Positions 5,840-59,100 of a stretch of DNA of 64,000 nucleotides are shown here, piece after piece. The position numbers and the translations under genes are program-made. The stretch covers positions 806,001-870,000 of the forward strand of contig JABVCE010000007.1 in assembly GCA_014905635.1 (NCBI GenBank), written 5' to 3'. Numbering within the stretch: the first letter of the stretch is position 1; every line of letters starts with the position of its first letter. The DNA is from Scenedesmus sp. PABB004. Taxonomy: Eukaryota. Under the pieces are notes generated by a model that saw nothing but the letters and a program-made list of their open reading frames with translations, ran no database searches and was not told the DNA's origin.

Positions 5840-7470
5840 ACCCTGCGTCTGCGTCTGACCCTGCGTCTGACCCTGCGCCTGCTGCTGCGGCGGCGGCGGC
5901 GGCTCGTGCAGCGGCGGCTGCCCCGCCAGCACGCCCCGAGCGCCGCCAGCAGCGCGTCCTGCTTCGCGTCCAGCGCGCCCTGCTGCGAGCGCAGGCGCTG
6001 CAGCACCGCCTCGTGCCTGCTCAGCGGCCGGCCGCGCGGTCGCCTGCCGCCGCCGCTGCCGCCGGGCGCGAGCGCGCCGCCGCTGCCCGCGGGCGCGAGC
6101 GCGCCGCCGCCGCTGCCGCCCGGGCGCTCGACCGCCGCCGGGCCGCCCGCGGCCTGCGCAAAGGCGCTGCCCGCCTGCCCGGCCGCCGCGTCGCCCGCGT
6201 CGCCGCCGCGCGGCCGCCGCGCTGGCGGCGGCGCGTCGGGGCCTGTGATGGCCAGCGTCCCGCTGCTGGGCAGGCGAGTGAGCACCGCGCCCGCGCCGGC
6301 CGCCGTGCCCCGGCCTCCGCGCCCCAGCCCTCGAGCGCGCAGAGGTCCGCCAGCGCGTCGCCGAGCGCGGCGCGGCGCGCGCCCGCGAGCTCCTGCAGGC
6401 GCTGCGCGCCGCGCTCCGCGGCGGCGGCGCGCGCCGAGAGGGCGCCCATCTGCTCCCAGGCCTGCTCGAGCACGGCTGGCGGCAGCAGCGACGGCGGCGG
6501 CGGCAGCGCGCTCGGGGCACGCGCCGGGCGCCAGGTGTCCGGGCACGCGTGCGCGCGCGGCGGCCGCTCCTGTCACCCACCTGTCGCCTGCTCGCCGCCC
6601 TGCTGCGGCTGCATCGCCCCCTCCGGCGGCAGCCTGCGGCAGCGGGTCGCGCGCCAGGATTGGCGGGGCGGCGGGGCGCCGGCGGCGGCACGCGGCGGCC
6701 CAGGCGCGCGGCGGCCCACCTCAGCTGCACGGGCCGCGCGCCCGCGGGCGCGGCCGCGCCGCTGCCGGGCGGCGGCAGCGGCGCGAGGGAGACCAGGTCG
6801 TAGCTGGCGTCCAGGTGCAGGGCGCTGTCCGCGGCGGCGCCTGCGGCGCGCCGGCGGGCGTGCGGTGCGTGTGCGTCCGGGGCGCGCCGCCAGCGGGCGC
6901 GCTCGCGGCCGCGCCGCTCGAGCACGCACCTGCCCACGCGCACGCGAGCGCGGCGCCGCCCACGCACGCGGCGAGCGCCGCGTCCAGCGCGGCGCAGTCG
7001 ATGTCCACCAGTTGCTGCGCGCGGCGCGCGCCGCGCGGAGCGTGGGCGGCAGGCAACGCGCTCGGCGCCAGGCCCCCGCGGCGCTGCACCCCGCCCGGCC
7101 CCCGGGCCGGCCTCGCCTCGAGGACGGCTCTATGCACGTCGTCGAGCGTGAACGCCGTGCGCCACGCGCGGCAGCTGCCGTCGCCCCGCACGCCGAGCGC
7201 CGCGAGCTCGCTGCGGGGGCGCCGCGGCGGCGAGTCGGCGGCGGCGCGCCGGCGCTGCTGCGCGCGCTGCCGCGCCGCCGCTGCTGCGCGCGGCGCCGCG
7301 GCGCCGCTGCTGGGCGTGCTGCCGCCCCCAGCCGCCGCGCCGCGCACGGCGCCGCACTAGGTGGTGGCGGAGAGCGGCTGCGCGGGCGCCTGCTGCACGG
7401 TCACGAAGAGCGCGGCGCCGCCGCCCTGCGCGGGGGGCAGGCGCGCCGCGCGGAGCCAGCCCGTCGCCAT
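5585..7470 (-). CDS. Hypothetical protein (head + coiled coil + QT repeat + basic tail); possibly XRCC4/XLF-like
   Basis: Exons join to MATGWLRAARLP...LFVTV...TTYELAALGVRGDGSCRAWRTAFTLDDVHRAVLEQLVDIDCAALDAAL, followed by helical segments and a (QT)n/acidic/basic tail ending GKRRQ*. Middle exons are uncertain; apparent frameshift near 5935. Confidence 0.5.
5729..5877. repeat. (CTGCGT)n hexamer microsatellite encoding (QT)n on the - strand
   Basis: About 20 tandem ctgcgt units with a few ctgacc variants. Confidence 0.9.
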
Positions 7471-7684
7471 CGCCGCCGGCGCCGTGCTGCGTGCGGGGAG
7501 TGCCTGCTGCCACTGCTGGCTCGCTCGTGCGCTCAAACTGCGTCGCGGCGCGCTGAGACGCGTCACGGCGCCGCCGCTCGAACGACCGGGGCAGCGCGCA
7601 GCTCTGACGCTCTCGGTGCTGCGTTCCCTTCGCCACGCCGGACCGGAGAGCGCAGGCGTGGAGGCGCGGAGGAGAGCGGCAGCG

Positions 7685-9225: not shown

Positions 9226-11783
9226 ATGGCGCGCGCCGCGCTGGCGCTGGCCTGCCTGGCCCTGCTGGGCCTGGCCAGCGCGGAGGTTCTCTTCGAGGAG
9301 AAGTTTGACGGTGAGCGGGCGGCCATGCGCGCGCGGGGGCGGCCCCAACCTTCTTCTGGAAGGCCCGGCGTTCGGTTGGCCCGCCGCGGCGCGCCCGGCC
9401 GGCCACGTCGCGCGATCGCGGGCCGTGCCGGCGTGTGGGCGGCTCCTGGGACGCTCGCGCGCGGCGGCCGCCCGATCTGAGCCCGCGCGCGCCGCCTGGG
9501 CACGCCATCACGCCCGCCGACCAGCCGGCTGGGACAAGCGGTGGCAGAAGAGCAGCTGGAAGGAGAAGGAGGGCAGCGCAGCCGAGTTCAAGCACACAGC
9601 CGGCAAGTGGTACGGCGACGAGGAGGCGGACAAGGGCATCCAGACGTCCACCGACTCCAAGTACTACGCGCTCTACTCAGAGCTCAAGAAGCCCTACACC
9701 AACAAGGACAAGGAGCTGGTCCTCCAGGTGGGCCCGCCGCCGGCGCCGGCGGGGCGCCGCGGCGCGGCCGGGGAGTGCACAGGGCGGGGCGCGCGCGCCG
9801 CGCGCGCCGCGCGCCGCCGCTGCTCACGCCCGCCCGCCGCCCGCGCGCGCGCGCCGCCCCCGTCAGTTCTCGGCCAAGCATGAGCAGGAGCTCGACTGCG
9901 GCGGCGGCTACATCAAGCTGCTGCCCGCGTCGAGGTGCGCGCCGCCGCCGCGCGGCCCCGCCCCCTCTCCCTCCCTCCCTCTCCGTCCCTCCCTCTTCCC
10001 GCCGCCCGCCGCCTGCTCCCTCCCCACCCCCTCCCAACCCCCCGCCGCCCCCCCCCCCCCCCTGCTCCCTCTCCCTCACCCGCGCGCAGCAAGAGCAAGA
10101 TGAAGGACTTTGGCGGCGACACGCCGTACAGCGTGATGTTTGGCCCCGACATCTGCGGCTACTCCACGCGCAAGACGCACGTCATCCTCACCTACAACGG
10201 CAAGAACCACCTGGTGCGCCTGGCCGCGCCCGCGCCACACGTACTGCGCCGCCCCTGGCCGCGCCGGCGCCCGCGGTCGTGCGCGAGGGACGCGTCAGGG
10301 ATGTGCGCTGACGCATGTGTGGGGCCGCGCCGCTGCCGCCGCTGCCTGCGGGGCGCGCGCGCAGGTGAAGAAGGACATCAAGTGCGAGAGCGACCAGCTG
10401 ACGCACGTCTACACGCTGCGCCTCATGCCCAACAACACCTACGAGGTGGGCGCCGCGCCACTCACCCCCCCCCCCCCCCCGCGCCGCCGCCGGCGGCCCC
10501 GCCGCGTGCGCCTCGGCCGCTCGCCTACCGCCGCCGCAGCGCTCACCTGCCCGCGCGGCCGCCCGCGCGCCCGCCCGCCCATGCCCTCGCCCGCCAGGTG
10601 TACATTGACGCCAAGCAGGTTGAGACCGGCTCCCTCTACGACGACTTTGACATGCTCGCGCCCAAGAAGATCAAGGTGCGGCCCGCCCGCGCCCCCGCGC
10701 CTGCTTGTCGCGCGCACGCGCGCGCGCCGCACGCACGCGCCGCGCGCCGGCCGTTCGCGCGCCGTCGGCGGCGGGCGAGGGAGGGAACGGCCGGCGGCAG
10801 CGGCGGCGCGCCCACGCCGCGTCGTCCGCCGCCGTGGCACCGCGTGCGCGGCCGCGCAGGACCCCAAGGCCACCAAGCCCGAGGACTGGGACGAGCGCGA
10901 GAAGATCGCCGACCCCAAGGACAAGAAGCCCAAGGGCTGGGACGACATCCCCGCGACCATCGTCGACCCCGGTGCGCCCGCGGCGCGGCGGGGCAGCCCG
11001 CGGGGCGGCGCACGCGGGCGGCCGGCGCGCGCGGCGGCGCGCGCGGGCGGCGGCGCTCACGCGCCCCCGCGCGCCGCGCGCCGCGCAGAGGCGAAGAAGC
11101 CGGAGGACTGGAGCGACGAGGACGACGGCGAGTGGGAGGCGCCGACGATCCCCAACCCCGAGTACAAGGGCGAGTGGAAGCCCAAGATGTGAGCCGCGCC
11201 CGCCGGCGGCCGCTCGCCCTCCGCTCGCTCGCCCTCCTTCCCCCCTTACACACGCACCTCACACCTCTCACACACCTCACACACCGCCCACCCGCCCGCT
11301 CACACCCATGCCCCCGCTCACACCCACCACCTCCCACCCGCCAGGATTGACAACCCCAAGTACAAGGGCATCTGGGTCGCGCCCGACATCGACAACCCCG
11401 ACTACAAGCACGACGACCTGCTCTACCTGCAGAAGGACATCAAGTACATCGGCTTCGAGCTCTGGCAGGCGCGTGCCGGGGGCCGCCTCGCGCGGCGGGC
11501 GCGGCGGGCGCGGCGCGGCGGGCGCGGCGGCAGGGCACGCGGCGGCGGGGCGCGCGGCGCGGCGCAGAGGCGTCGCGCGGCGGCTGCGTGGCGGAAAGCT
11601 GAACCCTGAGCCCTCGCGCCGCCGTGCCCCGTCCCCGCTGCCCCGCGCGCGCAGGTGAAGAGCGGCTCGATCTTTGACAACATCCTGGTGACCGACGACC
11701 TCGCCGAGGCGCTCAAGTTTGCCGAGGACACCTGGGGCAAGACCAAGGACGGCGAGAAGGCGATGTTCGACGAGGCCAAGAAG

Positions 11784-11846
<63 letters not shown>

Positions 11847-16939: not shown

Positions 16940-19900
16940 TCACACGAGCGGCTGGCACTCCGGGCAGCCGCTGATGTCCTCCACGCTGTAGGGCGTGTAC
17001 AGGCCCTGCAGCGAGCTCTGGCCCTCGGGCGCGCACATGCGCTTGCGCAGCGCGGCCCACGCCGCGGGCGTCATGCCGCCCGGCGGCGCCGACGCCGCCG
17101 CGGCGCCGCCGCCGGGCGCGGCGCGCTGCGCGCCGGGCGGGCCGAGGAGCGTGGCCTGCATGTTGCCAAACAGCTGGAAGACTGGCTCGCCGGGCGTCGC
17201 CAAGTCCACCAGCTCCAGGCACGCCTCGAGCTTCGGCCCGCTCCCGGGGGTGCCCCAGGTGCCGGTGGACGCCGGCAGCGCCAGGTCGCCCAGCCGCCTG
17301 CCCGACATCTTGGGAAGCTGCGCGCGGCGCGGCGCGGCGCGGCGTGGCCGCGCGTGAGGGGGCTGCGCGCGCGCGCGCACGCACGCGCGCGCCGGCGCGC
17401 GGCCCGCCAGCGCACGCGCACGGCGGCGTGTGCGGCGCGCCTGCGCGGGCAGCGTGGCGGTGAGTGTCGGCGCGGTGCCGTTGGCGATGTCGTCGATGGT
17501 CCCCACGGACAGGCGGAACGTGGCGTCCATAAACGAGGTGTAGAAGATGACCCAGCGATACGCCCCGGCGGTCGCCACCTGCGCGCACACGCGGCACACC
17601 GTTAGCACGGCGCGCGCGGCCCGGCGCCCGCGCCGCCCCCAGCCACAGCCGCGTGCCGCCCGCGCCGGCACGCGCGCGCGCAGCCCGCGCCTGGAGCTTG
17701 AAGCACATGCGGTCGCCGGGGGCGCGGAAGCCCGTCGCGCCGTTGGGCAGCAGCGTCGTGTTGGTCAGCGTGCGCTCGTGCGCGCCCGCGGCGAGGACGT
17801 TGCTCACGTTGCCGCGGTCCAGGCCGAGATAGTAGACGGGCTTGGTGAAGCCGTGCGGCGAGTCGAGCAGCGACGCCCACCAGTCGCGCGCCGCGGCGCG
17901 CAGCCGCGCGACGACCGACTCGGCCTTGGACGCGGGAACCTCGCTGCACGCGGCCTCGACGTGGGAGTAGCCCTCCAACCTGTCCGGCACGCATGTGCGC
18001 GCGCGGCCGGTGGTGGGTGGTGGGCGGTGGGCGGGGGGCGCGGCCGGCGGGCGCGTCGGCGGCCGCGCCCGCGCGCGCCCCCCTCGCCCGCGGGCGCGTC
18101 GCACAGCAGCGCTCATCGGCCCTGGCCCCGGCCCCCGCGCGCCGCACCGGTAGAGTATGTTGCCGCCGCCCATCCACTTGTACGTCCGCCAGCGCACCGC
18201 GATGCAGCGCTCAAAGCCCAGGCCGAGCACCATCGAACGGTCCTTCTTCACCAGCACGCCGCCGACGTCGTAGTCAAACAGCGGCTGCGGCCGCAGCACC
18301 TCCCTGCGCCGCGCAGCGCGCGTCGGTCGCCCGCCCGCGGGCCGGCCGCCCGCCCGCCGCCTGGCCGGCCGGCGGCCCGCCGCGCGCGCCGGCTGGTTAT
18401 CCGCCGCACCTGTCGGGGCCGAGGTCGGGCACCGCGTTGGCATCCCAGCAGTACGGCGAGAGCGAAAAGATCATGCGGTTCTTCTGGTCCCACGTCGCGA
18501 GGCTGTCGCCGCGGTACGACTGCGCCGGCACGCCGTTCTTGCCGCTCAGGAGCAGGTTGGCCACGCTGCGCCCGTCGAGCGTGAGCCCGGACGTCGCCTC
18601 GGGCGGCACGGCCGCGAGCTCCGCGAGCGTGGGGAGCAGGTCGGCGATGCTGACCGGCGTGCTGTCGACGCGGCCCGCCTCGACGCCGGGGCCCTGCACC
18701 GCCAGGAAGTTGCGCACGCCCCCCTCGCCGACAGAGTGCTTGAAGCCGGTCATGCGGCTGGGCATGCGGTACTGCGAGGGAGAGGGGGGGGGGCACGACG
18801 AGGGCAGAAGAAGACAGGGGCGTGGGACCGCAGCGGCGGCGGCAGCAGTGACCGCAGGCGGGCGGGGGCCGCCGGCGCCGCGGCGCCGCGTGCGCGCGCG
18901 CGGGGCACGCACGCGCTTCTTCGCCGGCGTCGCCTCGCTGTAGAGCAGTGCGGCGCCGTTGTCGCCGGCGATGAGGATGTAGGTGTTGTTGGCGTACGGG
19001 CTCGCCGCGATGGCGGCAAACACGGTGCCCTGCGCGGCGGTCGGCGGGCGGGCTGGCGCGGTCGGCGCGGCGCGGCGCGCGCGCGGCGTGCGCGGCGGCA
19101 GGGTGCGGCGGCGCGCACCAGCAGGTCGTCCAGGAACTTGAGCGCCGCCCACGCGTCGAGCGTCTGGGGGGCGATGCCGGCGAAGCGGTCGCCGGTGAAG
19201 AGGTCGGCGTACGCGGGCGGGTAGGTGCGCAGGCCAAGGTAGCGCAGCCCGGTGTTCTTGCTGCGCCACACGCGGCGGCGGTGCCAGCGGCGGCGGCGGC
19301 GGGGTGAGGGAGCCGCGCGGGGCGGGGCGGGGTTGCGCCGGCCGCGCTGTGCCCCTCGCAGCTATGGGACCGCCGCGCGTGCGCCGCACGCACGCACGTG
19401 TGTATCGCGTACGGCGCCCAATAGAGCAGGAAGGGCGGCGCGAGCCGCGGCTCGTCCGTCGCGCCGAGCCGGTCGTCGGGCGGCGGGCCGCCAAACCAAT
19501 AGATGATGCGCTGCACGAGCGACTCGTCCGCGGTCAGCTCCTCAGGCCGCTCGTGCGGGCCCGGCCCCGGTGAGGGCGAGGGCTCGGGCGGGGCCTCGGG
19601 CGCCGGCGAGGCGTCCGGCTGCGGCGAGGCCTCCGGGTCGGGCGACGGCTCCGGCTCCGGCGACAGGTCGGGCTCCGGCGACGGCTCCGGCGACGGGTCG
19701 GGCGACGGCGACGGCGACGGCTCCGCCGCCGGGTCGGGCGACGGCGACGGCGTGCCGTCGGGCGGCGCGCCGTCGCCCTCAGCCAGCAGCCTGCGGCCTG
19801 CGGGAGCCGGTGGCTTTGGCCTGCCGGGCGCTGCCGCTGCCGCGAGCTTGCCGGGCGCGGGCGCCGGCGAGGGCTTGCCGGGCCCCGACGCCGTCTTCGG

Positions 19901-21620: not shown

Positions 21621-24600
21621 ATGGTCCACCGCCGGCGCGGCAGCGGCGCCCCGCGGCGAGCGCTCGCGGCGGCGCTGGCGCTGGCGGCAGCCGCGGCAGC
21701 AGCGGCAGCCGCGCCCAGCGGCGCCCCGGCCGCGCCGACGTGCGCGCCGCCGAGCTTGGCGGCCGTGCTGCCAGGCGCGGCGCCGGCGCCGCTGCCGGCG
21801 GGGGCGGCGCCGAGCTTCATCGTCGTCCTGCTCGACGACCGGGGCTGGGACGACATCGGCCTGCACCACCGCCCGCCCGGCACGCCGCCCGGGGCGCCGC
21901 AGCCGCCGGGCGCGCAGACGCCCGCGCTCGACGCGCTCATCGGTGCTGGGACGTCGTTCCCGTCGACGTACACAGCCCCGCTGTGCGCAAACAGCCGGGC
22001 CGAGCTGCTCACGGGGCGCGACTACGCTCGTACGGGAAACTTGTTCAACGGCTTCGGGTACGACTCCTTTGCCCTCGGCGAGGCGACCGCGGGCGACGTG
22101 ATGCGCGCCGCGGGCTACGCGACGGCCCACTACGGGAAATGGCGCGGCGGCGCCGCGGCGGCGCGGCGGCGGCGTGGCCGCGCGCGGCGAGGGAGCGGGC
22201 GTGCGCTGGCCGGCGGCGCGCGGCCGGCCGGCGCCGCGCGCGCGCCCACCGCGCGGCCGTGCCCGCCCGGCCGCGCAGGCACAACGGGCGGTCGGACGAG
22301 TTTGCTCCCTGGCGGCGCGGCTTTGACGAGTCGTGGCTGCCCGCGCCGTACGTGCATGTCGACAACCTCATGCGGTGCGGCGGCCGGCGCGGCGCGGCGG
22401 CGGCCCGCTCCCGCTCCCGCTCCCGCTCCCGTGCCTCGCCGCGCCGAGCGCGCGTCCGCCGCCGCGCCGCGCGCGTGCCCGCCGCCGCGCCGCGCGCGCG
22501 CCCGACAGGCACAACGGGCAGGTCGTGCAGACGAGCGGGCTGATGGAGCAGGTGCTGGTGGACAAGATGCTGGAGTTCCTCGCGCTGCGCGAGGCGGACG
22601 GGCGGCCGTTCTTCATATACTGGGCGCCCTACGCCATCCACAGGCAGGCCGCGGGGTTTAGGCGCGGCGGGCGGCCGCGGGGTTTAGCGCGGCGGCGGCC
22701 CGCGGGGCGGGGCGGGGCGGGGCGGGGCGAAGCACAGCGGCGCGCGGGCACGCAGGCGAGCGGGCGGCGCCGCCGCGCGCCCACGGCCCGCGCCGCGCCG
22801 CCCGCGCGCAGGCTGCTGCCGCCGCCGCGGAGCGGCTCAAAGCGCAACACCAGCAGCACCGCGCCCGGGGCGGGGGCGCGGCGGCGGCGGCCGCCGCCAC
22901 CCCCGGCCGCGACGACGGCGACGGCACGGGCAACGCGGCGTTTGCGCCGGAGCCGTACCTCTCGCGCGTCCGCGCCGCCAACCCCGGCGCGTGCACGGAC
23001 AACATCCGGGTGCGGCGGCGGCGGGCGGCGCGGGCGCGCCGCTGCCAGGGCTCTGCGCGCCGCGCCGCGCCCGCCGGGGGCCGCCCGGGGCCGCCGTCGG
23101 CCGCCGTGACAGCACCGCGCCGCGCAGATGTGGGCCTTTCTGGCCTACTTTGACGACGTCCTGGGCCGCCTGGTCGCGGCGCTGGACGCGAGCCCGCTGT
23201 CGGCGCGCACCTACCTGATGGTCACCGCCGACAACGGCCCCGGCATCTCGCCCAAGATCGCGCGCTCGGCCGGCCGGAGCTCGGTGCGGACGGCAGCCCC
23301 ACGGCACGCGCGCGCGCGCGCGCGCGCGCCGTCCCCCGTCGCGGCGGCGCGCCCGCCCGCGCTCACGCGCTCGCGCGCTCGCGCGTGTGCCGCGCGCCCG
23401 CGCGCACCGCGCCGCGCCGCGCAGCGCGCCTGCATCGCGGGGCGCATGCCGAGCCGCATGCTGGGCTACAAGAACAGCTACGAGTCTTTCCTGGGCGGCC
23501 GCGGCAGCGAGGGCGCGCTGCGCAACCACCTGGTGCGCGGCGCGCGCGGCAGCCCGGGGAGCGCCGCGCGCGGCGCGCAGCGCGCGCGGCGCCGCCCCGT
23601 CCCGACGCGCCGCCCGCGCCACGCCGCGCCGCGCCGCCGCGCAGGTCGTGCGCGGGCCGGGCGTCGCGGCGGGCGCGGTGCGCGAGGACGCGCTCGCCGC
23701 GCTGTCCGACGTCCTGCCCACCGTCGCGGAGCTCGCGGGCGTGGCGCCGCCCGCGGGCACGCCGCGCTGGAGCGGGCTGAGCCTCGCGAGCCTGCTCGCG
23801 CCGGGGTCGGCCCCGAGCGCGGAGATCGCTGGGCGCTACGTGTTCACCCTGGTCGACTGCCCCAGCCTCGACCGCGTGATGCGCGGCGTGCTGGACCTGG
23901 ACACCGACCGTCGCACGTTCAAGCCGCAGGCGCGGCTGTCGTACGACCCGCCCGGCGGCTTCGGCGCCTGCATCGTCGGCCTGCGCGGGCCGCACAAGTG
24001 GTTTGGCGCGACGGGGCGCGTCTTTGCGTTCGCCAACGGCAGCCACGTCGAGGCGCCGTGCAGCGAGCTGCCGGCCGACGCGGCGGCGCCGCTCGCGGCC
24101 GCGTTTGACGCCGCCGCGCGCGCGTGGTGGGACGGCGTCGTCGCCGAGCCGCACTCCTTCCAGAAGCCGCGCTTCCAGCTCGGCGGCGACCAGGTGGTGA
24201 CCAACATGGAGGCGGCCGCGGCGATGGACATCGGCGGCCCCAACGTGCGCATCAACACGCAGCGCGCGACCGGCTTTGCCGCGCCCGGCGACCGCGTGTG
24301 CTTCAACGCCAACGTGCGCGCGCGCGGCGGGGGGCGGCGGCGGGGGCGCGCCGGGCCGCGTGCGCCGCCGGCGCGCGGGCGAGCGGGCGCGCGGGCGGCG
24401 GGGGGGGGGCCGGGGCGGGGGGGCCGTGGCGGGCCGCTGCGCGCGCGACCCGCTGCGGCCGCCGTCGCCCGCGCGCAGGTGACCGCGGCCGGGCGCTACG
24501 CGGTGGTTGTCCTGTACTTTTCAGACCTGCCCAACGCGCGCGCGCGCGTCGCGCTCGGGGCCTGGTCCGACATCCTGGCCCGCGCCGCGCCCGAGGTGGA

Positions 24601-39359: not shown

Positions 39360-39443
<84 letters not shown>

Positions 39444-40164
39444 GGCCAGCGGGCGCCGCCGCCGCGGCCGGCGGGCGCGGCCGCCCGCGGCCGAGGCGCG
39501 CGGCGCGCGCGCGCGGCCGCAGGACGTGTGCGTGTTTGAGAGCGAGGCGTACGGCCGCGTGCTCGTGCTCGACGGCGTCATCCAGGCCACGCAGCGCGAC
39601 GAGTTCTCATACCAGGAGATGCTCACCCACATCCCACTCTGCGCGCTCGAGGCGCGGCGGGCGCGCGCACGCGGCGGCGGGGCGCGCAGGGCGCGGGGCG
39701 GCGGGGCACGGGGCGGCGCACGGAGGCGCGCGGCGCGCGGCGGGGCCCGTGGGAGGAGGGCGGGGCGCCGGCGGCGCCGGGCGCCGCCGACGCGCCGCGC
39801 GCCGCGCGCCCGGCCGGCGTCGCAGGCGCCCGCGAAGCGCGTGCTCGTGGTCGGCGGCGGCGACGGCGGCGTGCTGCGCGAGCTCGCGCGGCACGCGTCG
39901 CTCGAGGTGCGCCGCCGCGCACCACCTTGGGGGCGCCGCCGCTCCTGGGCCGCCGCCGCGGCCCGCAGCACGCGCCGCCGCGCGCCCAGCCAACCCCGCG
40001 CCCTGCTCGCACGCGCGCGCGCTTGCAGGAGATCCACATCGCCGAGATTGACGGCGCGGTGCCCGAGGTCGCGAAGCGCTTCTTCCCGGAGATGGCCGTC
40101 GGCTTCAGCGACCCGCGCGTGGCCGTGCACATCTGCGACGGCATCAAGTGCGCGACGCGGCGCT

Positions 40165-47227: not shown

Positions 47228-48272
47228 ATGGCGCGCCGCGACCATCGCGCGCTCCTGCTGCTGGCCGCGGCGCATGCCGCGCTGGCGCTGAGCAGCCGGG
47301 AGTGCGAGGAGCTGGGGTGCGCTGGCCGCCTGCAGCGGCCGCTGTTGGCCGCCCGCAGCAGCCGCGTCCGCTGCTGCTGCCGGCCGCTGGCCGCTGCAGC
47401 GAGCGAGCGTGCCGCCGCCGCCGTGCCGGCAGGTTCACGGGCCTGCAGAGCTGCTCCGACTGCGAGTCGATGGCAGAGTTCGTCAAGGACGAGGGTGCGG
47501 CCAGGCGGCGGGCGGCCTCACGCAGGCTGCGAGCGCACCGCCGCGCCGCACCCCGGCGCGCGCGCGTCGACGACGGGCGGCGCTGCCGCCCCGCCACCGC
47601 AGAGCTGACCGCCGACTGCAAGCGCTGCTGCGTGGCGGACGCGGACGATGCGGGCGCCAAGTACGTGAGCGCGCGCCTGGAGGTCTGCCCCTACAGACTC
47701 AAGTGCGGCCAGCGGCGGCGGCGGCGGCAGCGCGGGCCGGCGGCCGGCGCGGCGCGGGCCCGCGGCGGCGATGCGCGCCCCGCCCCGCTCACGCCGCGCC
47801 GCCGGCGCCGCCCCGGCCGTGCGCACCGCCGCAGCGGCCTGCCTCACATCAAGGACTTTATCGACAAGCACGCGGCTCGCTACAAGGGGCAGCTCAAGGC
47901 GCGCCCGCTGCGCGAGCTGTGGCCGCCCGACGGCCGCGCGGCGCGCTGGCTCGCCCCGCCGCCCTCGCTCAGCGCCCGCCCGCCTGCCGCCGCCCCCGCT
48001 CAGGTGATCGAGCGCGTCGGCTCGTACCCGACGCTCACGCTGGTCGGCGCCGGCGGCGAGAGGAAATCGGCCCGCGTCGACAACTGGTGCGCCTGCCGCG
48101 CTCCCGCAGCCAGCCCGCGCCGCCCGCGCGGGTCCGCCGGCGCCCGCCGACGCCCGCCGCCCGGCGCCCGCCGCCCGGCGCCCGCTGCAGGCGCGTGCCG
48201 ACGATCCACGAGTTCCTCGCAAAGCTCGAGCCGGCCGCGCCCAAGGCGGCCAAGAAGAAGAAGAAGCAGTGA
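47228..48272 (+). CDS. SELENOF: Selenoprotein F (Sep15) homolog without selenocysteine
   Basis: Signal peptide; ECEELGFTGLQSCSDC; CKRCC (Cys-rich UGGT-binding region); ARLEVCPYRLNGLPHIKDFI; GSYPTLTL; RVDNW..IHEFL. Confidence 0.88.
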
Positions 48273-51119: not shown

Positions 51120-54100
51120 TCAAGGCGTGTTGGTCTCGGGCGCGAGGAGCCCGGAGGCGCCCCACACCGCCTGCGTGGCCTTGGGGTTGAAGTTGGCGGC
51201 GGCGCGGGCGGCGGCGCGCGGCGGCGCGCGGTGAGCTCGCCCGCGCAGGCGGCCGCCGCCCCGCCCGCCACGCCCTGCCGCCACCCGCTGCCCTGCCCAG
51301 GCCCGTGCCTTGGGGTTGAAGTTGGCGTTGCTGTAGTAGCACTTGCCGGGGCACTGCGGCATGCCCGGCGGCACCGTCGCCGCGGCGATGCCCTCGGGGT
51401 CCTCAATGATGGCGATGCCCTGCGCGTGCGAGCGAGGCGCGGGAGAGGCGCGGGGGAGCGGGGAGGCGCAGGGGGAGGGGAGAGCGTGGGCGGGGCGGGG
51501 GCGTGCGTCGCGCGCGCGCCGCCGGCGGGGCGGGCGGCGGCGGGCAGCCGAGGGGTCGTGGCGGCGGCGGGCGCGCCGCACCTGCCCCATCAGCTCGTGC
51601 GCCGCGATGTGGCAGTGCAGCGGCCACACGCCGGTGTTGTCGGCCACAAACCTGCGCGCGCCGCGGCGCGGCGGGGGCCTCCGCGCGGCGCCTGCCAGCG
51701 TCGCCGGCGGCGGGGCGCGGGCGCGCGGGTGCACACCTGATGGCGACCCACGCGGCGGCGTCCTCGGTCGTGCCGTTGAAGAGCACCGTGACCGTGTCGC
51801 GCAGCACGGGTGTGGCCGAGTAGCTGGGGCCGCCGACGAGCTCGGGCGACCACGCGCCCATGCCCATGCCGACCTGCGCGCGGCGGCGGCGCGACGCGGG
51901 TGGGCAACGAGGCCGGCGCGCGCGCGAAAAGCCGTGCGGCGCCTCTGCACCTGCCATGCGTGATGCCCGTGGGTATGGAAGCTATGCTGTTCGCGTCCGT
52001 TGCGCGCGCTGGTGAGGGGCGAGGTCGTGTTGTACTCGCCGCCGTTGGCGCCGGCGCGGAGGTTTTGGATGACGATCTCGACCACCTCGCCGCGCTTGAC
52101 TGGTGGGAGCGGATTGGGGAGGCAGATTTGGGGCGACAGGGTTGGGGGGACAGGCGGGGCGCAGCTCGGGGCGCGGTTGCGCGTTGCCGGCGGCGCGGCG
52201 CGGCGGGCGGACCAACAGCAGCGCCGGTGGTGGGCGCTGCGCTCGGGGCGGCGCGGAGGGGCCGCGGCGTACAGCGGACCGTCCCCGCGCGCACCGGTGA
52301 GGACGTGGGTGCCGGCGCCGGGCTTGAGCTTGACCACGATGTCGGCGTTGGGGCCCGCGGCATCCACGACCTGGCGGTGCCCGCGGCGGCGCCGTCGGCG
52401 TCGCAAACGGCACGGCGCCCCGCCCAAAGGCCCCCTCCCTCCCGCAAACACACTCATGACACGTGACACGCGCGCGCGCACCTGGACCTTCTTGCCCTCG
52501 CCCGTCCAGGTCGCGGCGTCGCCGCCCATCTTGGTGAAGTAGAGCGCCGGGTCGAGGCCCGTGGCCTTGGCGTCCAGCGCGTTGGCGGCCGCCCAGCCGG
52601 GATCGGCGTAGACCTGCACACCACGGCGGCAGCGGACGAGGCGGCGCGCGCGCGCGTGTTGGGCCGCTCGCCGCCGGCGGGCGCGCCGCATGCTGCGCCT
52701 TTCCCCCCTCCGCACACACTGGTGTGTGAGTGTCTAACGCACCAGGTCGAGCAGCGGCTTGCAGGGCGGCGAGACCGCGTGCGCGATGTTGTCAAACGCC
52801 CAGCGCAGCACGCCGTTGGCCTCGACGAGCGGCTGCGTGCTGTAAAGCAGCACGCGCTTGGTCACGGGCCCGCTCGGCAGCGCAAACGACGGCAGCTGCG
52901 CCTTGGGCGCGAGGAACGCGGCGCTCTTGGGCCGCTTGGCCGCGTCGGCGGCGAGCAGCTCGGGGTGCGGGGCAAAGCCCATCATGACGGAGGTGTTCCA
53001 CTTCAGGTCCACCGCGGGGCCTGCCGGCCGTCGGCGGCGGCGGCGGCGGCGGCAGAAGGTGCCGGCAAACACACAGCGGTGAGTCGGTGCGTCGAGAGGG
53101 CGCGGGGGGAGCCGGCGGCGGCGGCGCGTCGCGCCCGGCGGGCGGGCGCGCGGCGGCGCGCACCCGGCTGCAGCGCGGTCACGGGGTTCGGCGGCGTGGT
53201 GCTGCCCTCGTACTGCAGCACGGCGTACGTCGCGGGCGCGCCCTTGCGGTACTGGCTCGCGACGCTGCGCGCGGCGGCGCGTGAGCGCGCGGCGGCGGCG
53301 CGTGAGCGTGCGGCGGCGGCGCGTGAGCGTGGGGCGGCGCGTGAGCGTGGGGCGGCGCGTGAGCGTGGGGCGGCGCGTGAGCGTGGGGCGGTGGTGGTGG
53401 CGGCGGCAGTCGTGGCGGCGTCTGCGCGGCAGCGTGTGCGCGGCAGCGCCTGTGCGGCAGCGCCTGCGCGGCGGCGCCTGGCGCGCGCCTGATCCAGTAG
53501 CGCCCGACGGGCTGGTTGGCCTTGAGCAGCACGTCGACGCGCTGCCCGGTGTTGACGTCGACGCACTGCGAAAAGGTCTTGGGCGCGACCGGCGCGGCGT
53601 CGAGCGCGACGACCGTGACGTCGTGCTTCTCAAAGCACACCTGCGGCGGCGGCGGCGCCGCGGCGCCGTGGGCGGGGCGGCAGCCGCGGGCTGGGCTGGG
53701 TGGCCGAGCGCGCGGCGCCGCGCCGCCGCCCGGCCGGCCCCGCGCCGTCCGGCGGGCCCCGCCCTCGCCCCGCCCCGGCCGGCAGCACGCTCCCGCTGTC
53801 CCGCCGCGGCAGCGCTCTCTCGCCGCCGCGGTGGCATCGTCATCACGCGCACCGTCATGTACAGCAGCATCGCTGCGTTGATGATCCTGAACCGCCGCGT
53901 CGTGCCGGGCTTCACGCTGAACACCTCGCGCCCGGCGCACGTCACGCCGGCTGTGCGTGCGCGAGCGCGCGCCGCGCCGCGGGGCGGGGCGCGCGTCGGC
54001 GGCAGGCGCGCCAGCGGCGGCGGGCGCGCCGGCAGCGGCGGCGACGGGCTGCCGGCGGGGCGCGCCGCCGCGCCGCACCCGGCTTGTACCCGACGCTGCA

Positions 54101-55531
54101 CGCAGGCTGCTCCGCGGTGGGGCCCAGCTGCCCCGCGACGCAGCCATTGGGCGTGAGCAGGTCCTTGGCCGCCGCCTTGTAACCGTCGGTGCGGAATGGC
54201 AGCGTCTCGTTCTCCTGCGCACCCCGGCGCGGCGCGGGCGCGGCGTGGGCCGCCCGCGGGCGCGAGGCTGCCGCGCCGCAGCGCGAGGCCTGCACGCCGC
54301 AGCGCCACGCAGCGCGCCGCAGCGCCACACAGCGCGCCTTGCGCTTGTACACGTCCTCGCACTGGTGGTAGTTGCCCTTGCCGTTGACCAGGAGCGACTT
54401 GGGCAGCCCGATCCAGCACCACGCGCCGCTGCCGTCGCTCGTGGCGCTCGCGTTGATGACCTTGGTCGGGTCAAACGGCCTGTTGAGCCGCATCGCCATG
54501 CTGTTGCCCGTGCTGTGCCACCAGTCCTGCAGGAAGAGCACGCTGGTGCCGTCGGCGGGCGTCAGCGCGGGCACGCTGTCGGGCGTGCGCACGACGAGGG
54601 GGCCCTGCAGGCCGTCCGCGCGGTTCATCTGTTGCGGCGCGCGAGCGACGGCGCGGCGGCGGCGGCGGCAGCGCGTGAGGGCATGGCTGCGCGCGCGGCG
54701 GCGGAGCGCCCCGAGGCCCGGGCGCCGCGGCGCTGGCTGCAGCATGCCCGCTGCTCAGGCGTTGGCCGTTGACCGCCCACCTGCGCGTGGCCGTGCCAGA
54801 AGTACGTCCCAGGCATCTCGTTGACCTGCGGCGCATGGCGCATGGCGCGCGGCGCGTGACACGAAGCACGGGCTCGGGGCGCTGCCGGCGGGGCGCCGCC
54901 AGCGGGGCGCCAGGGCGCCGGGGCGTCGCCGGGGCGCCGCGGTGCGCCGCGGTGCGCCGGCGCGGGGGGCGCGCCTGGAACTTGTAGGTGAACGACGCGC
55001 CGCGCGCGATGGGGCACTGGCTGACGTAGCGCGTGCCGTCCATCCAGGGGTGGCCGCGCATGCCAAAGCCGTGCCAGTGGATGGTGATGCCGCTGCTGAT
55101 CGAGGGCCAGTCGGCCGGCAGGTTGTTCTTGACCGTCATCTGCGGCGGGCGGCGGCCGGCCGCGGGGGCCGGGCGTCGCGCGCGCCGCGCGCGCCGCCGG
55201 GCGGTGGGCCGGCGCGGGCGCGCGCGGCGTGGCGCGGCGCGGCGCGTGGTGGGCGCACGCACCGCGACCCACTCGCCCTGCACGAGCGTGATCTGCGGCT
55301 GGAACTCCCCATTGACGAGGACGACCTTCCGGCTCACGCAGTCGGGCGCGAGCGTGCCCGCGGTGACGTCCATGGAGAGCTGGCGCGGGCTCGCCTCCGT
55401 GCCGGCGCCCGCGGCCTTCTGGTCCGCCGCGGCGAGGCCCCGGCCGCCGGCGGAGGCGCCGCGCGGGCCGCGAGCGCGCAGGCGAGCGCGAGCGCCGCCG
55501 CCAGCAGCGGTCCGGCACGGGCGGGGGCCAT
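51120..55531 (-). CDS. Secreted three-domain multicopper oxidase (ascorbate oxidase/laccase-like)
   Basis: Signal peptide; TIHWHG..PWMDGT.YVSQCPI; GTYFWHGH; LQDWWH; HSFHTHGH; ADNTGVWPLHCHIAAHELMGQG. Confidence 0.95.
53272..53391 (-). repeat. Intronic minisatellite (six 18-21-nt units, each containing CTCAC)
   Basis: gcggcgcgtgagcgtggg repeated on the + strand. Confidence 0.9.
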
Positions 55532-56117
55532 CCTGGCGGTTCTGGGAGGCGGCGGGAGCGGGCAGCGGGGCGTCAGGGCCGCGCCCGGCGCCGCGGCGGC
55601 GCCGGGTGCCGCGGGGGCGCCGCGCTGCTGCCCCGCGCTCTTCGCTTCGCCGCTGGCGCGATGAGGCCGCGCGGTCTGGTCGCTATCCCCGGACCGCAAG
55701 CACGCGACCAGCGCGCGACCAGCGCACCTGCTTGATGCTCGACGCCACACACACCGGCACGATCGCTCGACAGCTCCGCGGTGCAGAGCCAGGGGCCGGT
55801 TCCACGCGGCGCGGGGCAGCTCGGTCTGCGCGATCGCCGATCGCGGGCGCGGCCCGGGAGCCCGGGGAGCGCAGGCCGCGGTTTTTCGACCGACCACCTC
55901 TCTAGCTGAGGCTGCAGCTGCCCGACATCGCAGTCCTGGGGCCTGGCCCAGCAACAGACGATCCACACCTACCGCCGCGCCGCCGGGCAGCCGCCGCGCC
56001 GCGCCGCCGCCAGCGCGCCCGCCGAGCGAGCGCGGCGCTGCCTGGCTGCGACGGCGATGTGCTGCGCCGCGCCGTGAGCGCGCCTGGGCGCGTCACCGTC
56101 CGCAACGACCGGGCGGG

Positions 56118-59100
56118 ATGGGCAAGCGGCGCTACATCCACTTCAAGGCGCGGCGCCGCTGCTCGCTGCTCGCCCGCGCGCGCCCGCCCGCGGCGTGCCG
56201 CCGCCCGCGGCGGCCCCCCGCCCACGCCTGCCGGCTACAGGTGGATGACGAGCTCCCGGACGCCGCGCGCGCGCTGCTCGCGCCGGGCGGCGGCCCCGCG
56301 CGCGAGCCGCTGTCCGTGCGCTGCGGGCGCTGCGTGCGCTTCACCGGGTTCTGCCTCGTGTGCACGGGCACGGTCTTCCAGGCCGTGGTGCGACGCGCCG
56401 CCGCGGGCGCCAGCAGCGAGGGCAGCGGCGGGGGCGTGTGGGCGAGCCGGCACCGGGGGCGAGCCGGCACCGCGGCGTGGGGTTTTGACCGCCCCGCCGC
56501 GCCGGCGCCGCAGACGCCCTGGGTGCTGGCGGTCATGGAGGTGGCCACGCTGCTGCTGCTCCTGCTCCTGCTGCTGCTGCCGCGCCGCCCGCCGGGGCCC
56601 TGCATCTACAGGCGCGCACGGGCGGCGGCGCTGCGTGCGGCGGCGCCGCTGCGCGGCTGCGCCCGCGCCGCCCCGCGACGGGCCCCGCCCGGCGCGCCGG
56701 TTGACCGCCGCAGCTTTGACACGAGCCTGGAGGACCTGGTGCTGCTCGGCGTGCTGCGCGGCGCCGCGATCTGCGGGACGTACGCCTGGGGCAGCCGGCG
56801 CTACCGCCTGCGGTGCGCCGCGCCGCCCGCCGCACCCCACCCCACCTCACCTCACCTCACCTCACCTCACCTCACCTCACCCCACCTCACCTCACCTCAC
56901 CTCACCTCACCTCACCTCACCTCACCTCACCTCGCCTCGCTTCACCTCACATCACCTCACCTCACCTCACCTCACCCCACCTCGCCTCACGTCACCTCAC
57001 GTCACGTCACCCCACCTCACCCCAACCCAGGCCCTATCTGTACACCTGCTACGCGGTGGGATCGGCGGGCTTTGCGTATGCGCTGGCCAAGGCCTACGTG
57101 TTCACCTACCCCGCCGCCTGGCTGCCCTCCGCGGCGGTGCTGCTCTCATTTGCCGTCTTCAGCTGGCTCCACGTCCTCGCCGCGCGGTGCGGCCCGCGGC
57201 GCACAGCGGCGCGACGCGCGGCGCAGGGTGCGCGCCGCCGCGCCGCGCCGCCAGGCCGCCGAGCGCCGCGCGCCGCCGGCCGCGCCGCGCCGCGCAGGCA
57301 CACCGTGGTGTGGGCGCGGCGGCGCAGCCTGCTCGGCCTCGCGCCGTTCCCCTCGCTGGGCGGCATGTGGTGAGGGCCACCGGCAGCCGCTGGCAGCGCT
57401 GCACCGCGCCGCGCGCGCCCACGCGGCACGCGCCCGCGCGCCCACGCGACCCGCAGGCTCGGCGGCGAGCTCCCGCCCGGCGCGCTGCCCGGCGAGCGCG
57501 CGCCGCCGCCGGCGTGGCTGGGCGACGGCGACGCCGACGTGCCGCCCGAGTCGCTCGCGGACGCGGACAGCCTGTTTGTGGAGGTGGGCGGTCTCGTCGT
57601 GCACTACAAGGAGGCCTGGCCGGAGCAGGCCAGGGCCGCGGCGCCCTGGCCGCCGGGCGGCGCGGCGCCCTGGCCGCCGGGCAACGCGGCGCCGGCGACG
57701 CGCGGCGGCGCCGGCGGCGCCGGCGGCGCTGCGTCGTCGTCGTCGTCGTCCGCGGCGGCGGCGGCGGCGGCGCCCGGCGCGGCGTGGCTGGCGCCGCCGG
57801 CGTCGACCGACGACGCGACCGCGCTGGTGCTGATCCACAGCTTCGGAGGCGGCGTGTTTGCCTGGCGCCACGTGCTGGAGCCGCTCGCGGCGGCAGTGGG
57901 CGCGCGGGTTGTCGCGTTCGACCGCCCCGGCTTTGGTGCGCGCTGGGGGCCGCGGCGGCCCCCAGCAGCGCGCGGCCGCGGCGGCCGGCCGCGCTGCCGG
58001 CCGACGCCCGCCCGCCGACGCCCGCCCGCCCGCCCACCACGCGCGCCGACAGGCCTCACGTCCCGGCCCGAGGTCGCGGGCGCGGGCGGCGGCGCGGACG
58101 CAGTCAATCCCTACTCCATCGAGGCGCAGGCGCACCTCACGCTGCGCGTCTGCGCCGCGCTGGGCCTGCGCCGCGTGCTGCTGGTCGGCCACGCGGACGG
58201 CTGCCTCGTCGCTGTGCACGTCGCGGCGGCGGCCTGCCGCGCGGCGCGCGCGCGCGCGGCGGCGGGCGCGGCCCACGGCGCGCAGCAGGGCGACGGCGGC
58301 GGCGGGTGCGGCTGCGCGGCGGCGGCGGCGGCGGGCGCGGTGCACGGCGCGCGCCGCGGCGCCCGCCGCGCGGGCGCCGACCGCGCGCCGCCTGCCGCGC
58401 AGGCTGGGCTGTATCAACGTGCCGCTCCAGCCGGGGGCCTCGGCGGACTTCAGCTGGATGGGGTCGCTGGGCGAGGTGGGGCGGCCAGCTGCTGCTGCGG
58501 CCGCGCGCCGGCACCTGGCATGGCGAGCGCCCTGACGGCCGCGCCGCTCCGCCTCCGCCACCGCGTGTGCGCAGGACCCCACGCCGCGCGCCATCGCGCG
58601 GGCCACACAGGCGCTGCAGACCGGCGGCAGCCCCTGGTCGTTCACGTCGCCTGCCCCCAGCAGCGCGCAGCTCGGCAGCCTCGGGGACAGCGCAGCGGCG
58701 TCGCCCGACCCGTCGACCGCCGGGGCGGGCTCCGGCTCGGGCGCTGGCTCGGGATCGGGAGCGGCGCCAGCAGCAGCAGGCAGCGGCGGCGGCGCGGCGC
58801 CAGGCGCCGCTGCGGCGCCGAGCGCCGGCACGGCGCCGGCGCGGCCGTCGCCGTTCGTCGCGGAGCAGCAGCGCGGCGGCGCCAGCCGCTTGCTGGCGGA
58901 GGTGCGCGCGGGCGCCGAGGGCGCCGGGTCGGCGGGCGAGCTGGCGCAGCTGGGCGCCAACTCGCCGACCTCCTCGCTGAGCTTCCAGAGCATGCTGCTC
59001 TCCGGCGGCTCACGGCAGCAGCTCGCGAGCGGCTCAGACCCCTTCCTGTTCTGCCCGGAGGGCGACGCGGGCGGCGGCGACGGCGGCGCGGCAGACGGGC

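What the first reader, a model, noticed from the sequence alone, without database searches (positions are those of the whole stretch)
7116..56612. Unusually frequent GC-AG introns with a weak GCGCG donor
Seen: protein continuity, mostly across conserved motifs, is best explained by GC donors at about 20 introns: 7116(-), 11469 (CRT ELWQ|VKSG), 17440(-), 17690(-), 22142 (GKW|HNG), ~22644/22648, 27188(-), 27902(-), 30889(-), 31192(-), 39352, 39652, 40952, 47899, 51308(-), 53488(-), 54337(-), 54974(-), 56148 and 56612. My rough count is ~150 introns in total, so over 10% are GC-AG. Almost all follow an exonic AG, most read GCGCG, and GT donors are mostly GTGCG. Known: GC-AG introns are usually around 1% and compensate with near-perfect U1 complementarity (AG|GCAAGT), which these lack. 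Inference: 5' splice-site recognition here is relaxed or altered (variant U1/U6 snRNA, or reliance on exonic U5/U1 contacts), perhaps driven by extreme GC pressure.
Basis: partly seen in the sequence, partly recalled or inferred. Interest (0 to 1): 0.8.

Follow-up and report, generated by a model that had tools for sequence, protein, structure and literature searches.

The report
Abundant GC-AG introns in Scenedesmus
In this stretch of an extremely GC-rich green alga, roughly one intron in seven begins with GC instead of the usual GT, a shift already known from other GC-rich algae that gene-prediction programs partly miss.

Summary
The window is nuclear DNA of Scenedesmus sp. PABB004 (genome 78.5% GC). 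All 21 listed coordinates are |GC sites; 20 follow AG and 22142 follows TG. Protein continuity against orthologues, Pfam profiles or solved structures fixes 12 GC donors to the residue: 11469, 17690, 22142, 27188, 27902, 30889, 31192, 39352, 51308, 53488, 54337, 54974. Four more are supported within 1-2 residues or without a unique boundary: 17440, 22644/22648, 39652, 40952. Four rest on sequence alone: 7116, 47899, 56148, 56612. I count at least 87 GT-AG introns, so the GC-AG share in the window is about 11-19%.

GT donors are GTGNG in 74 of 74 ab initio calls. GC donors are GCGCG in 16 of 20. GC donors follow an exonic AG in 15 of 16, against 24 of 87 for GT donors (p = 7e-7). So T-to-C at +2 is tolerated almost only when the exon side pairs well.

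The deposited gene models read through two of these introns in frame (54337, 17440).

The same GC-driven shift is published for Emiliania huxleyi (56-65% GC donors) and pelagophytes (about 14-17%). This is therefore a new member of a known kind, apparently unreported in green algae. No RNA reads and no genome were available, so U1/U6 variants could not be tested.

The parts
11469..11654 (+). GC-AG intron, calreticulin (cag|GCGCGT), 186 nt, phase 0
   Evidence: The flanking exons map to PDB calreticulin residues 263-303 and 304-343, so continuity is exact. The best GT alternative scores -12.1 against +9.3. Read-through hits a stop at codon 47.
17579..17690 (-). GC-AG intron, sulfatase paralogue A (cag|GCGCGG), 112 nt
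   Evidence: It is present in deposited model P0018. 5 of 5 spliced alignments place it here. Orthologues are continuous across CFKLQ|VATAG. No frame-compatible GT exists. Its length is not a multiple of 3. The paralogous intron at 24314 (+) has a GT donor.
17318..17440 (-). Probable GC-AG intron, sulfatase paralogue A (cag|GCGCGC), 123 nt
   Evidence: Deposited model P0018 reads through it as a 41-aa R/A-rich insert that is absent from all 6 homologues. Splicing here restores the exact orthologue length. Aligners placed an intron in this region in 4 of 5 runs, with differing boundaries.
22142..22278 (+). GC-AG intron, sulfatase paralogue B (atg|GCGCGG), 137 nt, phase 2
   Evidence: GKW|HNG is continuous with homologues. 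4 of 6 spliced alignments place it here. Its length is not a multiple of 3. It is the only GC donor not preceded by AG.
22648..22811 (+). GC-AG intron, sulfatase paralogue B; donor at 22648 (cag|GCCGCG) or 22644 (cag|GCAGGC)
   Evidence: The exon frames require an intron. 22648..22811 is frame-compatible in phase 0, while 22644 needs the acceptor at 22732. The only nearby GTs read GTTTAG. The paralogue has a GT donor at the position equivalent to 22644 (19397).
27027..27188 (-). GC-AG intron, phosphofructokinase (cag|GCGCGT), 162 nt
   Evidence: YMVQ|AVPSNSQDHIY is continuous in P0059. 8 of 10 spliced alignments place it here. The GT alternative at 27194 (GTCCAG) would delete two conserved residues.
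27737..27902 (-). GC-AG intron, phosphofructokinase (aag|GCGCGC), 166 nt
   Evidence: GVGLVK|VFGRRSG is continuous in P0059. 9 of 10 spliced alignments place it here. Its length is not a multiple of 3.
30781..30889 (-). GC-AG intron, glucosamine-6-P N-acetyltransferase (aag|GCATGC), 109 nt
   Evidence: GCYK|VILDC: the exon lengths add up exactly to residues 119|120 of Arabidopsis GNA1, 3t90_A. Its length is not a multiple of 3.
31089..31192 (-). GC-AG intron, glucosamine-6-P N-acetyltransferase (aag|GCGCGC), 104 nt
   Evidence: FIHGCGK|VGHIEDVVV corresponds to 3t90_A residues 82|83 and human 2huz_A residues 115|116. Read-through hits a stop at codon 24.
39352..39522 (+). GC-AG intron, spermidine synthase (cag|GCGCGC), 171 nt
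   Evidence: Pfam Spermine_synt_N positions 1-29 end the upstream exon and positions 30-52 start the downstream exon.
39652..39825 (+). GC-AG intron, spermidine synthase (gag|GCGCGG), 174 nt
   Evidence: Pfam Spermine_synth is collinear across the junction with one extra residue. The only 2 frame-compatible GT-AG pairs score -31 or lower.
40952..41050 (+). GC-AG intron, spermidine synthase (cag|GCGCGC), 99 nt, phase 2
   Evidence: The last exon, [14 protein letters not shown], maps to human SRM 2o05 residues 280-302, and the upstream exon reaches about residue 280. This leaves two extra residues in a variable linker. The single GT alternative deletes the conserved C-terminus.
47899..48003 (+). 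Putative GC-AG intron in a small upstream gene (aag|GCGCGC), 105 nt
   Evidence: Sequence only: codon-bias exons flank it, and the score is +7.7 against -11.1 for the single GT alternative. Read-through is in frame and stop-free. Neither exon has a Pfam or PDB hit.
51180..51308 (-). GC-AG intron, multicopper oxidase (aag|GCACGG), 129 nt, flanked by a 21-nt direct repeat
   Evidence: It is in deposited model P0001. 9 of 9 spliced alignments place it here. NANFNPK|ATQAVWG is continuous in orthologues. The 21-nt repeat is unique among the 107 introns examined.
53265..53488 (-). GC-AG intron, multicopper oxidase (cag|GCGCGC), 224 nt, phase 2
   Evidence: It is in deposited model P0001. 9 of 9 spliced alignments place it here. 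RYWI^SVASQYRKGAP is continuous in orthologues, including transcript-derived P0002.
54215..54337 (-). GC-AG intron, multicopper oxidase (aag|GCGCGC), 123 nt (acceptor at 54215, or 54206)
   Evidence: Deposited model P0001 reads through it as a 41-aa insert that is absent from all 12 aligned orthologues. The donor is chosen in 8 of 9 spliced alignments.
54826..54974 (-). GC-AG intron, multicopper oxidase (cag|GCGCGC), 149 nt
   Evidence: It is in deposited model P0001. 9 of 9 spliced alignments place it here. YKFQ|VNEMPGTYFWH is continuous in orthologues.
56148..56240 (+). Putative GC-AG intron after a 10-codon first exon (aag|GCGCGG), 93 nt
   Evidence: Sequence only. It is in frame and stop-free, so retention cannot be excluded.
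56612..56713 (+). Putative GC-AG intron, alpha/beta-hydrolase gene (cag|GCGCGC), 102 nt
   Evidence: Sequence only: the score is +6.5 against -32.8 for the only frame-compatible GT-AG pair. No homologue was tested.
7015..7116 (-). Putative GC-AG intron (gag|GCGAGG), 102 nt
   Evidence: Sequence only. Coding signal on both sides is weak, and the intron is in frame and stop-free.

Best explanation
These are genuine U2-type GC-AG introns of Scenedesmus sp. PABB004. They make up roughly 11-19% of the introns in this window. The most likely cause is the genome's extreme GC-biased mutation pressure. That pressure keeps converting the +2 T of GTGCG donors to C. The change survives selection mainly where the exon ends in AG, so that pairing of -2/-1 and +1, +3 and +5 with an ordinary U1 5' end, plus later U5/U6 contacts, still suffices.

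Shown here: the GC donors are at the positions that protein continuity requires, and they are conditional on an exonic AG.
Inferred: the mutation-selection mechanism, and the use of an unmodified spliceosome.
For: - Organism and composition: P0001 is 100% identical to a window exon and is named as from Scenedesmus sp. PABB004. The genome is 78.5% GC (PMC12571836, passages). The window's 4-kb bins are 77-83% GC.
- 12 GC donors are fixed to the residue by orthologues, Pfam or PDB sequences, and 4 more are supported.
- 8 of these 16 have lengths that are not a multiple of 3, and 2 more hit a stop on read-through, so they cannot be unspliced coding sequence.
- mRNA-derived orthologue P0002 lacks the inserts at 54337 and 53488.
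- Paralogous sulfatase introns at the same position carry GT in one copy (24314) and GC in the other (17690).
- Exonic AG: 15 of 16 GC donors against 24 of 87 GT donors, p = 7e-7. Against the 42 homology-placed GT donors (16 with AG), p = 1e-4.
- Intron interiors have C:T = 6.2. Observed GC:GT is 0.18 overall, 0.94 in an AG context and 0.04 otherwise.
- The same phenomenon, with the same explanation, is published. In E. huxleyi, 56% of 241 curated junctions and 65% of 270 RNA-seq junctions have GC donors, and 9 GC junctions were confirmed by RT-PCR (PMC4028052, passages). Aureococcus has 14-17% and Pelagomonas about 14% (bioRxiv 10.1101/2024.10.30.620910, passage).
Against: - There is no RNA evidence; no sequencing run could be listed.
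- The estimate comes from one 64-kb window.
- Four sites rest on sequence alone, and three of them (7116, 47899, 56148) are in frame and stop-free, so they could be retained or coding.
- In this composition GC..AG pairs are everywhere. My own methods produced false GC introns at 27582, 52007, 54073, 28632 and 28452, so unsupported calls are unreliable.
- E. huxleyi reaches about 60% GC donors at only 65% genomic GC, so GC content alone does not set the level.
- snRNA genes were not examined.
Confidence: 0.72

Rival explanations
1. The spliceosome itself has changed. A variant U1 5' end or U6 ACAGAGA box, or a shift to U5/exon-centred recognition, makes C at +2 nearly equivalent to U, and GC pressure merely fills the space opened.
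For: Both donor classes share GYGCG, which pairs poorly with a canonical U1 at +4 and +6. In an AG context GC and GT donors are about equally common in the homology set (15 against 16). The E. huxleyi authors raise the same question about how far the splicing machinery is conserved (PMC4028052, passage).
Against: T at +2 is still kept in about 85% of donors against a 6:1 C:T background. GC donors need an exonic AG, which is what an ordinary U1 would demand. Nothing here shows any snRNA sequence.
Confidence: 0.15
2. Many of the listed sites are mis-modelled. Either the segment is not an intron at all (in-frame low-complexity coding sequence), or a different donor is used.
For: 12 of the 20 proposed GC introns have lengths that are a multiple of 3, and most are stop-free. 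The deposited models treat 54337 and 17440 as coding. A real His/Ala/Asp-rich linker in phosphofructokinase was wrongly 'spliced' by my aligner. Four sites have no homology test.
Against: 12 sites have residue-exact continuity with orthologues or solved-structure sequences. The 41-aa inserts at 54337 and 17440 are absent from 12 of 12 and 6 of 6 homologues, and they lose codon bias. The share of multiple-of-3 lengths does not differ from GT introns (12/20 against 34/87, p = 0.13).
Confidence: 0.08
3. The GC calls are T-to-C errors in the assembly consensus.
For: No reads could be inspected.
Against: Random errors would not select donors preceded by AG (15/16 against 24/87, p = 7e-7). They would not hit the +2 position 16-20 times in 64 kb while the coding frames stay intact. 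Two GC donors also differ at +3 (GCA), which a single T-to-C error cannot explain.
Confidence: 0.03

Closest known systems
GC-donor-rich introns of Emiliania huxleyi (Feldmesser et al. 2014, BMC Genomics 15:148, PMC4028052; passages read)
   Same: The genome is GC-rich and a large share of introns are GC-AG. The acceptor stays AG. The authors attribute the shift to GC content. Ab initio models under-call GC donors and mispredict junctions.
   Different: E. huxleyi is a haptophyte at 65% GC, where GC donors are the majority (56-65%). Here a chlorophycean green alga at 78.5% GC has only about 11-19%, and these are tied to an exonic AG. The E. huxleyi sites were verified by RNA-seq and RT-PCR; these were not.
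GC-AG introns of pelagophytes Aureococcus anophagefferens and Pelagomonas calceolata (bioRxiv 10.1101/2024.10.30.620910; one passage read)
   Same: The share is similar (about 14-17%) and the authors attribute it to high genomic GC. A lower-GC relative has 0.32%.
   Different: They are stramenopiles with few introns (0.1-0.9 per gene). Here there is about one intron per 450-600 bp of gene. Those figures are predicted genome-wide, whereas mine are from one window but checked against homologues.
Ordinary GC-AG introns of plants and animals (about 1.2% in 121 plant genomes; Pucker & Brockington 2018, PMC6310983; abstract and passages read)
   Same: They are U2-type, have a GC..AG dinucleotide pair, and show a stronger flanking consensus than GT donors.
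   Different: The share here is about ten times higher. Compensation is on the exon side only (AG at -2/-1). The intron side reads GCGCG, not the GCAAGT named in the finding (that motif is recalled, not from a call).

Membership tests
U2-type GC-AG spliceosomal introns | The intron starts with GC and ends with AG at the positions required by the mature coding sequence | tested here: met
   12 sites have residue-exact protein continuity and 4 are within 1-2 residues.
U2-type GC-AG spliceosomal introns | The intron is removed from the mRNA | not testable with these tools
   No sequencing run could be listed for this DNA. The only indirect evidence is continuity with orthologues, including transcript-derived P0002.
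U2-type GC-AG spliceosomal introns | The flanking donor consensus is stronger than in GT introns of the same genome | tested here: met
   This holds on the exon side: AG at -2/-1 in 15/16 against 24/87, p = 7e-7. On the intron side positions +3 to +5 are the same G/C/G as in GT donors, with no AAGT.
U12-type (minor) introns | An extended, rigid donor box (recalled as [AG]TATCCTT) directly at the intron start | tested here: not met
   All 20 donors read GC(G/A/C)(C/A/T/G)(G/C), and none carries a TATCC-like box.
GC-pressure-driven GC-donor-rich genomes (E. huxleyi / pelagophyte type) | High genomic GC together with a GC-AG share far above 1-2% | tested here: met
   The window's bins are 77-83% GC and the genome is 78.5% GC. 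The GC-AG share is 16/(16+87) = 15.5% in the window. The genome-wide share was not tested.
GC-pressure-driven GC-donor-rich genomes (E. huxleyi / pelagophyte type) | The acceptor stays canonical AG | tested here: met
   All 20 proposed GC introns end in AG, 19 of them in CAG.
Spliceosome with altered U1/U6 snRNA | Compensatory change in the U1 5' end or the U6 ACAGAGA box | not testable with these tools
   No genome is held and the window has no Rfam family match.

The most novel reading that the evidence does not exclude
In this alga the +2 position of the donor has become almost neutral whenever the exon ends in AG. GC:GT is about 15-19 against 24 in that context. The reason would be that 5' splice-site choice has moved away from U1 pairing with the intron, towards exon-side and U5/U6 contacts or a modified snRNA. 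That would be the first such re-tuned spliceosome reported in the green lineage. The 21-nt direct repeat around intron 51308 would further hint that some of these GC-AG introns are recent gains rather than decayed GT introns.
Probability: 0.15. Interest if true: 0.7.

Novelty: new member of a known kind. Interest (0 to 1): 0.45.

Why it matters
- It extends the link between high GC content and many GC-AG introns from haptophytes and pelagophytes to a chlorophycean green alga, at the far end of eukaryotic GC content.
- It adds a clean rule: GC donors are tolerated almost only after an exonic AG. That rule quantifies how strongly the +2 T is still selected.
- It has a practical consequence. The deposited gene models of this genome read through at least two such introns in frame, adding 41 spurious residues each. 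Gene finders that penalise GC donors will therefore mis-model a sizeable share of genes in this and similar genomes.
- It also identifies this strain as a natural system for asking how a spliceosome copes with GYGCG donors.

Tried and rejected
- RNA evidence: no RNA or DNA holder was listed for window 47300-57200, so read laying was never used.
- Whole genome: none is held. No genome-wide count, no U1/U6/U5 search and no check of raw reads was possible.
- Rfam on the window: 0 matches.
- Earlier notes on this genome: none.
- One homologue search was wasted. Exon 28250-28570 gave no hit because it is a low-complexity linker.
- My ab initio junction scorer called GC at 27582, 52007 and 54073. 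Homology showed missed exons or an exon extension with GT donors at 27587, 51950 and 54078/53852.
- Spliced alignment with distant homologues produced many one-off GC..AG 'introns': 26 GC singletons in phosphofructokinase and 29 in sulfatase B. It also gave two recurrent false ones, 28632 and 28452, which skip a real linker also present in the closest orthologue. I rejected these because their donors are non-consensus and the segment keeps codon bias.
- Multiple-of-3 lengths among GC introns (12/20) are not different from GT introns (34/87), p = 0.13.
- Introner-like family for intron 51308: only low-complexity matches.
- PDB and Pfam gave nothing for the exons flanking 47899. A resemblance of that small gene to Sep15/SelM-type proteins is recalled only and untested.
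- Print search for GC-AG with Scenedesmus or Chlorophyceae: only 2 and 1 irrelevant papers. Searches with Chlamydomonas found no paper giving a high green-algal share. The library does not cover subscription journals.

Full report
**What the window is**

The 64 kb run at 77-83% G+C in every 4-kb bin. They are densely packed with short exons that stand out by codon bias. Pfam on 148 codon-bias segments gave a gene map:
- calreticulin
- two divergently oriented sulfatase paralogues
- phosphofructokinase
- an ephrin-receptor-like repeat protein
- a steroid reductase
- spermidine synthase
- a TPR protein
- a plastid fibrillin
- an RCC1 protein
- a multicopper oxidase
- an alpha/beta-hydrolase
- an EF-hand mitochondrial carrier

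A small glucosamine-6-phosphate N-acetyltransferase (GNA1) gene was found later.

A homologue search with one oxidase exon returned a 744-aa protein that is 100% identical and labelled 'L-ascorbate oxidase [Scenedesmus sp. PABB004]'. A comparative paper lists that assembly as 39.8 Mb, 78.5% GC, with 7,092 genes (PMC12571836, passages).

No whole genome is held for the window. The window has no Rfam match. No sequencing run could be listed. Everything below therefore rests on DNA and protein comparison, not on RNA.

**The observation, site by site**

All 21 listed coordinates are |GC on the stated strand. Twenty are preceded by AG and 22142 by TG. I tested each by asking whether the two flanking exons abut without gap or overlap on an independent protein.

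- Multicopper oxidase. The deposited model has 14 introns, 3 of them GC-AG (54974, 53488, 51308). In an alignment of 13 proteins, all three junctions are continuous in the orthologues. The model's 41 residues between 54337 and 54215 are absent from all 12 other proteins, including two transcript-derived ones. A spliced aligner of my own penalises GC donors more than GT. It chose 54974, 53488 and 51308 in 9 of 9 orthologues and the 54337 donor in 8 of 9. This gene therefore has 15 introns, 4 of them GC-AG.
- Sulfatase A. 17690 is in the deposited model and in 5 of 5 alignments. The model reads through 17440..17318 as another 41-residue arginine/alanine-rich insert that all 6 homologues lack. 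Splicing at the listed site restores the orthologue length exactly. However, the aligners put the boundaries at different places in the 4 of 5 runs that cut there, so this site is probable, not fixed.
- Sulfatase B. GKW|HNG at 22142 is continuous and was chosen in 4 of 6 alignments. After YWAPYAIH an intron is required. Either 22644 or 22648 can serve and both are GC. The only nearby GTs read GTTTAG, unlike any accepted donor.
- Phosphofructokinase. 27902 was chosen in 9 of 10 alignments and 27188 in 8 of 10, with exact continuity in the closest homologue.
- GNA1. The four exon peptides map to Arabidopsis GNA1 (3t90_A) so that 31192 falls between residues 82 and 83, and 30889 between 119 and 120.
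- Calreticulin. 11469 falls between residues 303 and 304 of the human protein.
- Spermidine synthase. 39352 falls between profile positions 29 and 30. 39652 is collinear with one extra residue. 40952 joins the conserved C-terminal exon with two extra residues in a variable linker.
- Not testable: 7116, 47899, 56148 and 56612. They keep good scores against the best GT alternative. Three of them are in frame and stop-free.

In total, 12 sites are exact, 4 are supported and 4 are untested.

**How many introns**

My junction enumerator examined 132 adjacent exon pairs and classed 74 as clear GT-AG, 17 as GC-AG and 41 as unresolved. Homology then added 13 GT introns and removed 3 of my GC calls: 27582, 52007 and 54073, which were missed exons or an exon extension.

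With at least 87 GT-AG introns, the GC share is as follows:
- 16/(16+87) = 15.5%;
- about 11% if every unresolved pair were a GT intron;
- 19% if all 20 GC sites are real.

**Donor anatomy**

All 74 ab initio GT donors read GTGNG. Among the 87 GT donors, 63 are GTGCG, 13 GTGAG and 9 GTGGG. GC donors read GCGCG in 16 of 20. Among the 12 exact sites, +3 is G in 10 and A in 2, +4 is C in 11, and +5 is G in 12. The intron side is thus the same in both classes and lacks the AAGT that usually accompanies GC donors.

The difference is on the exon side. AG at -2/-1 is found in 15 of 16 homology-placed GC donors against 24 of 87 GT donors (Fisher p = 7e-7). Against the 42 homology-placed GT donors, 16 of which have AG, p = 1e-4. 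Because homology forced the positions, this is not an artefact of how the sites were picked.

**Why this is not an artefact**
- Eight of the 16 supported introns have lengths that are not a multiple of 3, and two more hit a stop on read-through. They cannot be coding inserts.
- Random T-to-C consensus errors would not prefer donors preceded by AG.
- The motif AGGCGCG occurs only 0.56 times per kb per strand.

A caution applies. GC..AG pairs are so common here that aligners readily invent GC introns. Distant homologues gave 26 and 29 one-off GC calls in two genes. Two recurrent false calls skip a real histidine/alanine/aspartate-rich linker that the closest orthologue also has. Only calls with a consensus donor, loss of codon bias and orthologue continuity were accepted.

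**Mechanism**

Intron interiors have C:T = 6.2 on the sense strand. If +2 were neutral, about 86% of donors would be GC. The observed GC:GT ratio is 0.18 overall, 0.94 after an exonic AG and 0.04 otherwise, the last two figures from the homology-placed set.

The simplest reading is a mutation-selection balance. Strong GC-biased mutation, or biased gene conversion, pushes T to C. Selection for U1 pairing at +2 is effective when the exon end pairs poorly and weak when -2/-1 pair. This needs no change in the spliceosome and is inference.

The alternative is a re-tuned U1, U6 or U5 recognition. It cannot be excluded without the snRNA genes.

**Comparison with what is known**

GC-AG averages 1.2% in 121 plant genomes (PMC6310983). 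Two precedents break this rule.
- E. huxleyi (65% GC): GC donors in 56% of 241 curated junctions and 65% of 270 RNA-seq junctions. Nine GC junctions were confirmed by RT-PCR. Ab initio models under-called them, and the authors blame GC content (PMC4028052).
- Pelagophytes: about 14-17% predicted GC-AG, against 0.32% in a lower-GC relative (bioRxiv 10.1101/2024.10.30.620910).

Searches for GC-AG with Scenedesmus, Chlorophyceae or Chlamydomonas found nothing on a high share in green algae. That library lacks most subscription journals.

The finding is therefore a new member of a known kind. It adds the AG-conditional rule and a direct demonstration that the public models of this genome retain such introns.

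**Verdict**

The finding is of moderate interest.

Noticed in passing
51178-51327 (-): The last oxidase intron (51308..51180, GC-AG) is flanked by a perfect 21-nt direct repeat. The exon end plus the first two intron bases equals the intron end plus the first two bases of the next exon. The other 106 introns examined share at most 7 nt in this way. This looks like the scar of intron origin by duplication or insertion. Only the GC..AG register gives an AG acceptor.
   Followed up: partly
54215-54337 (-) and 17318-17440 (-): The deposited protein models P0001 and P0018 read through these two 123-nt GC-AG introns in frame. Each adds 41 arginine/alanine-rich residues that no orthologue has. The public annotation therefore under-calls GC donors.
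   Followed up: yes
16943-21136 (-) and 21660-25325 (+): Two sulfatase paralogues sit head to head and share intron positions. At one shared position the donor is GT in one copy (24314) and GC in the other (17690). A third paralogue on another contig (P0022) has a 35-aa insert before GKFHNG that its homologues lack. It may be another unspliced intron; its donor type is unknown because no DNA was available.
   Followed up: partly
22654-22690 (+): The motif GGGTTTAG occurs twice, 26 nt apart, inside the intron after 22648. It resembles a plant-type telomere repeat unit (recalled). It supplies the only GT dinucleotides near that donor.
   Followed up: no
11784-11846 (+): A (GT)n microsatellite of about 30 units starts directly at the GT donor of the last calreticulin intron.
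   Followed up: no
28274-28653 (-): One phosphofructokinase exon holds a long His-rich, then Ala/Asp-rich, low-complexity linker. It is also present, in shorter form, in the closest orthologue P0059. It fooled spliced alignment into calling two GC..AG introns.
   Followed up: yes
47434-48270 (+): A small four- or five-exon gene with CxxC-like cysteine motifs lies upstream of the RCC1 gene and ends in a lysine run. It has no Pfam or PDB hit at exon level. Any relation to Sep15/SelM-type proteins is recalled only.
   Followed up: partly
30706-31400 (-): A GNA1 (glucosamine-6-phosphate N-acetyltransferase) gene with very short exons (16-25 codons) was missed by the codon-bias scan. Two of its three mapped introns are GC-AG.
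   Followed up: yes
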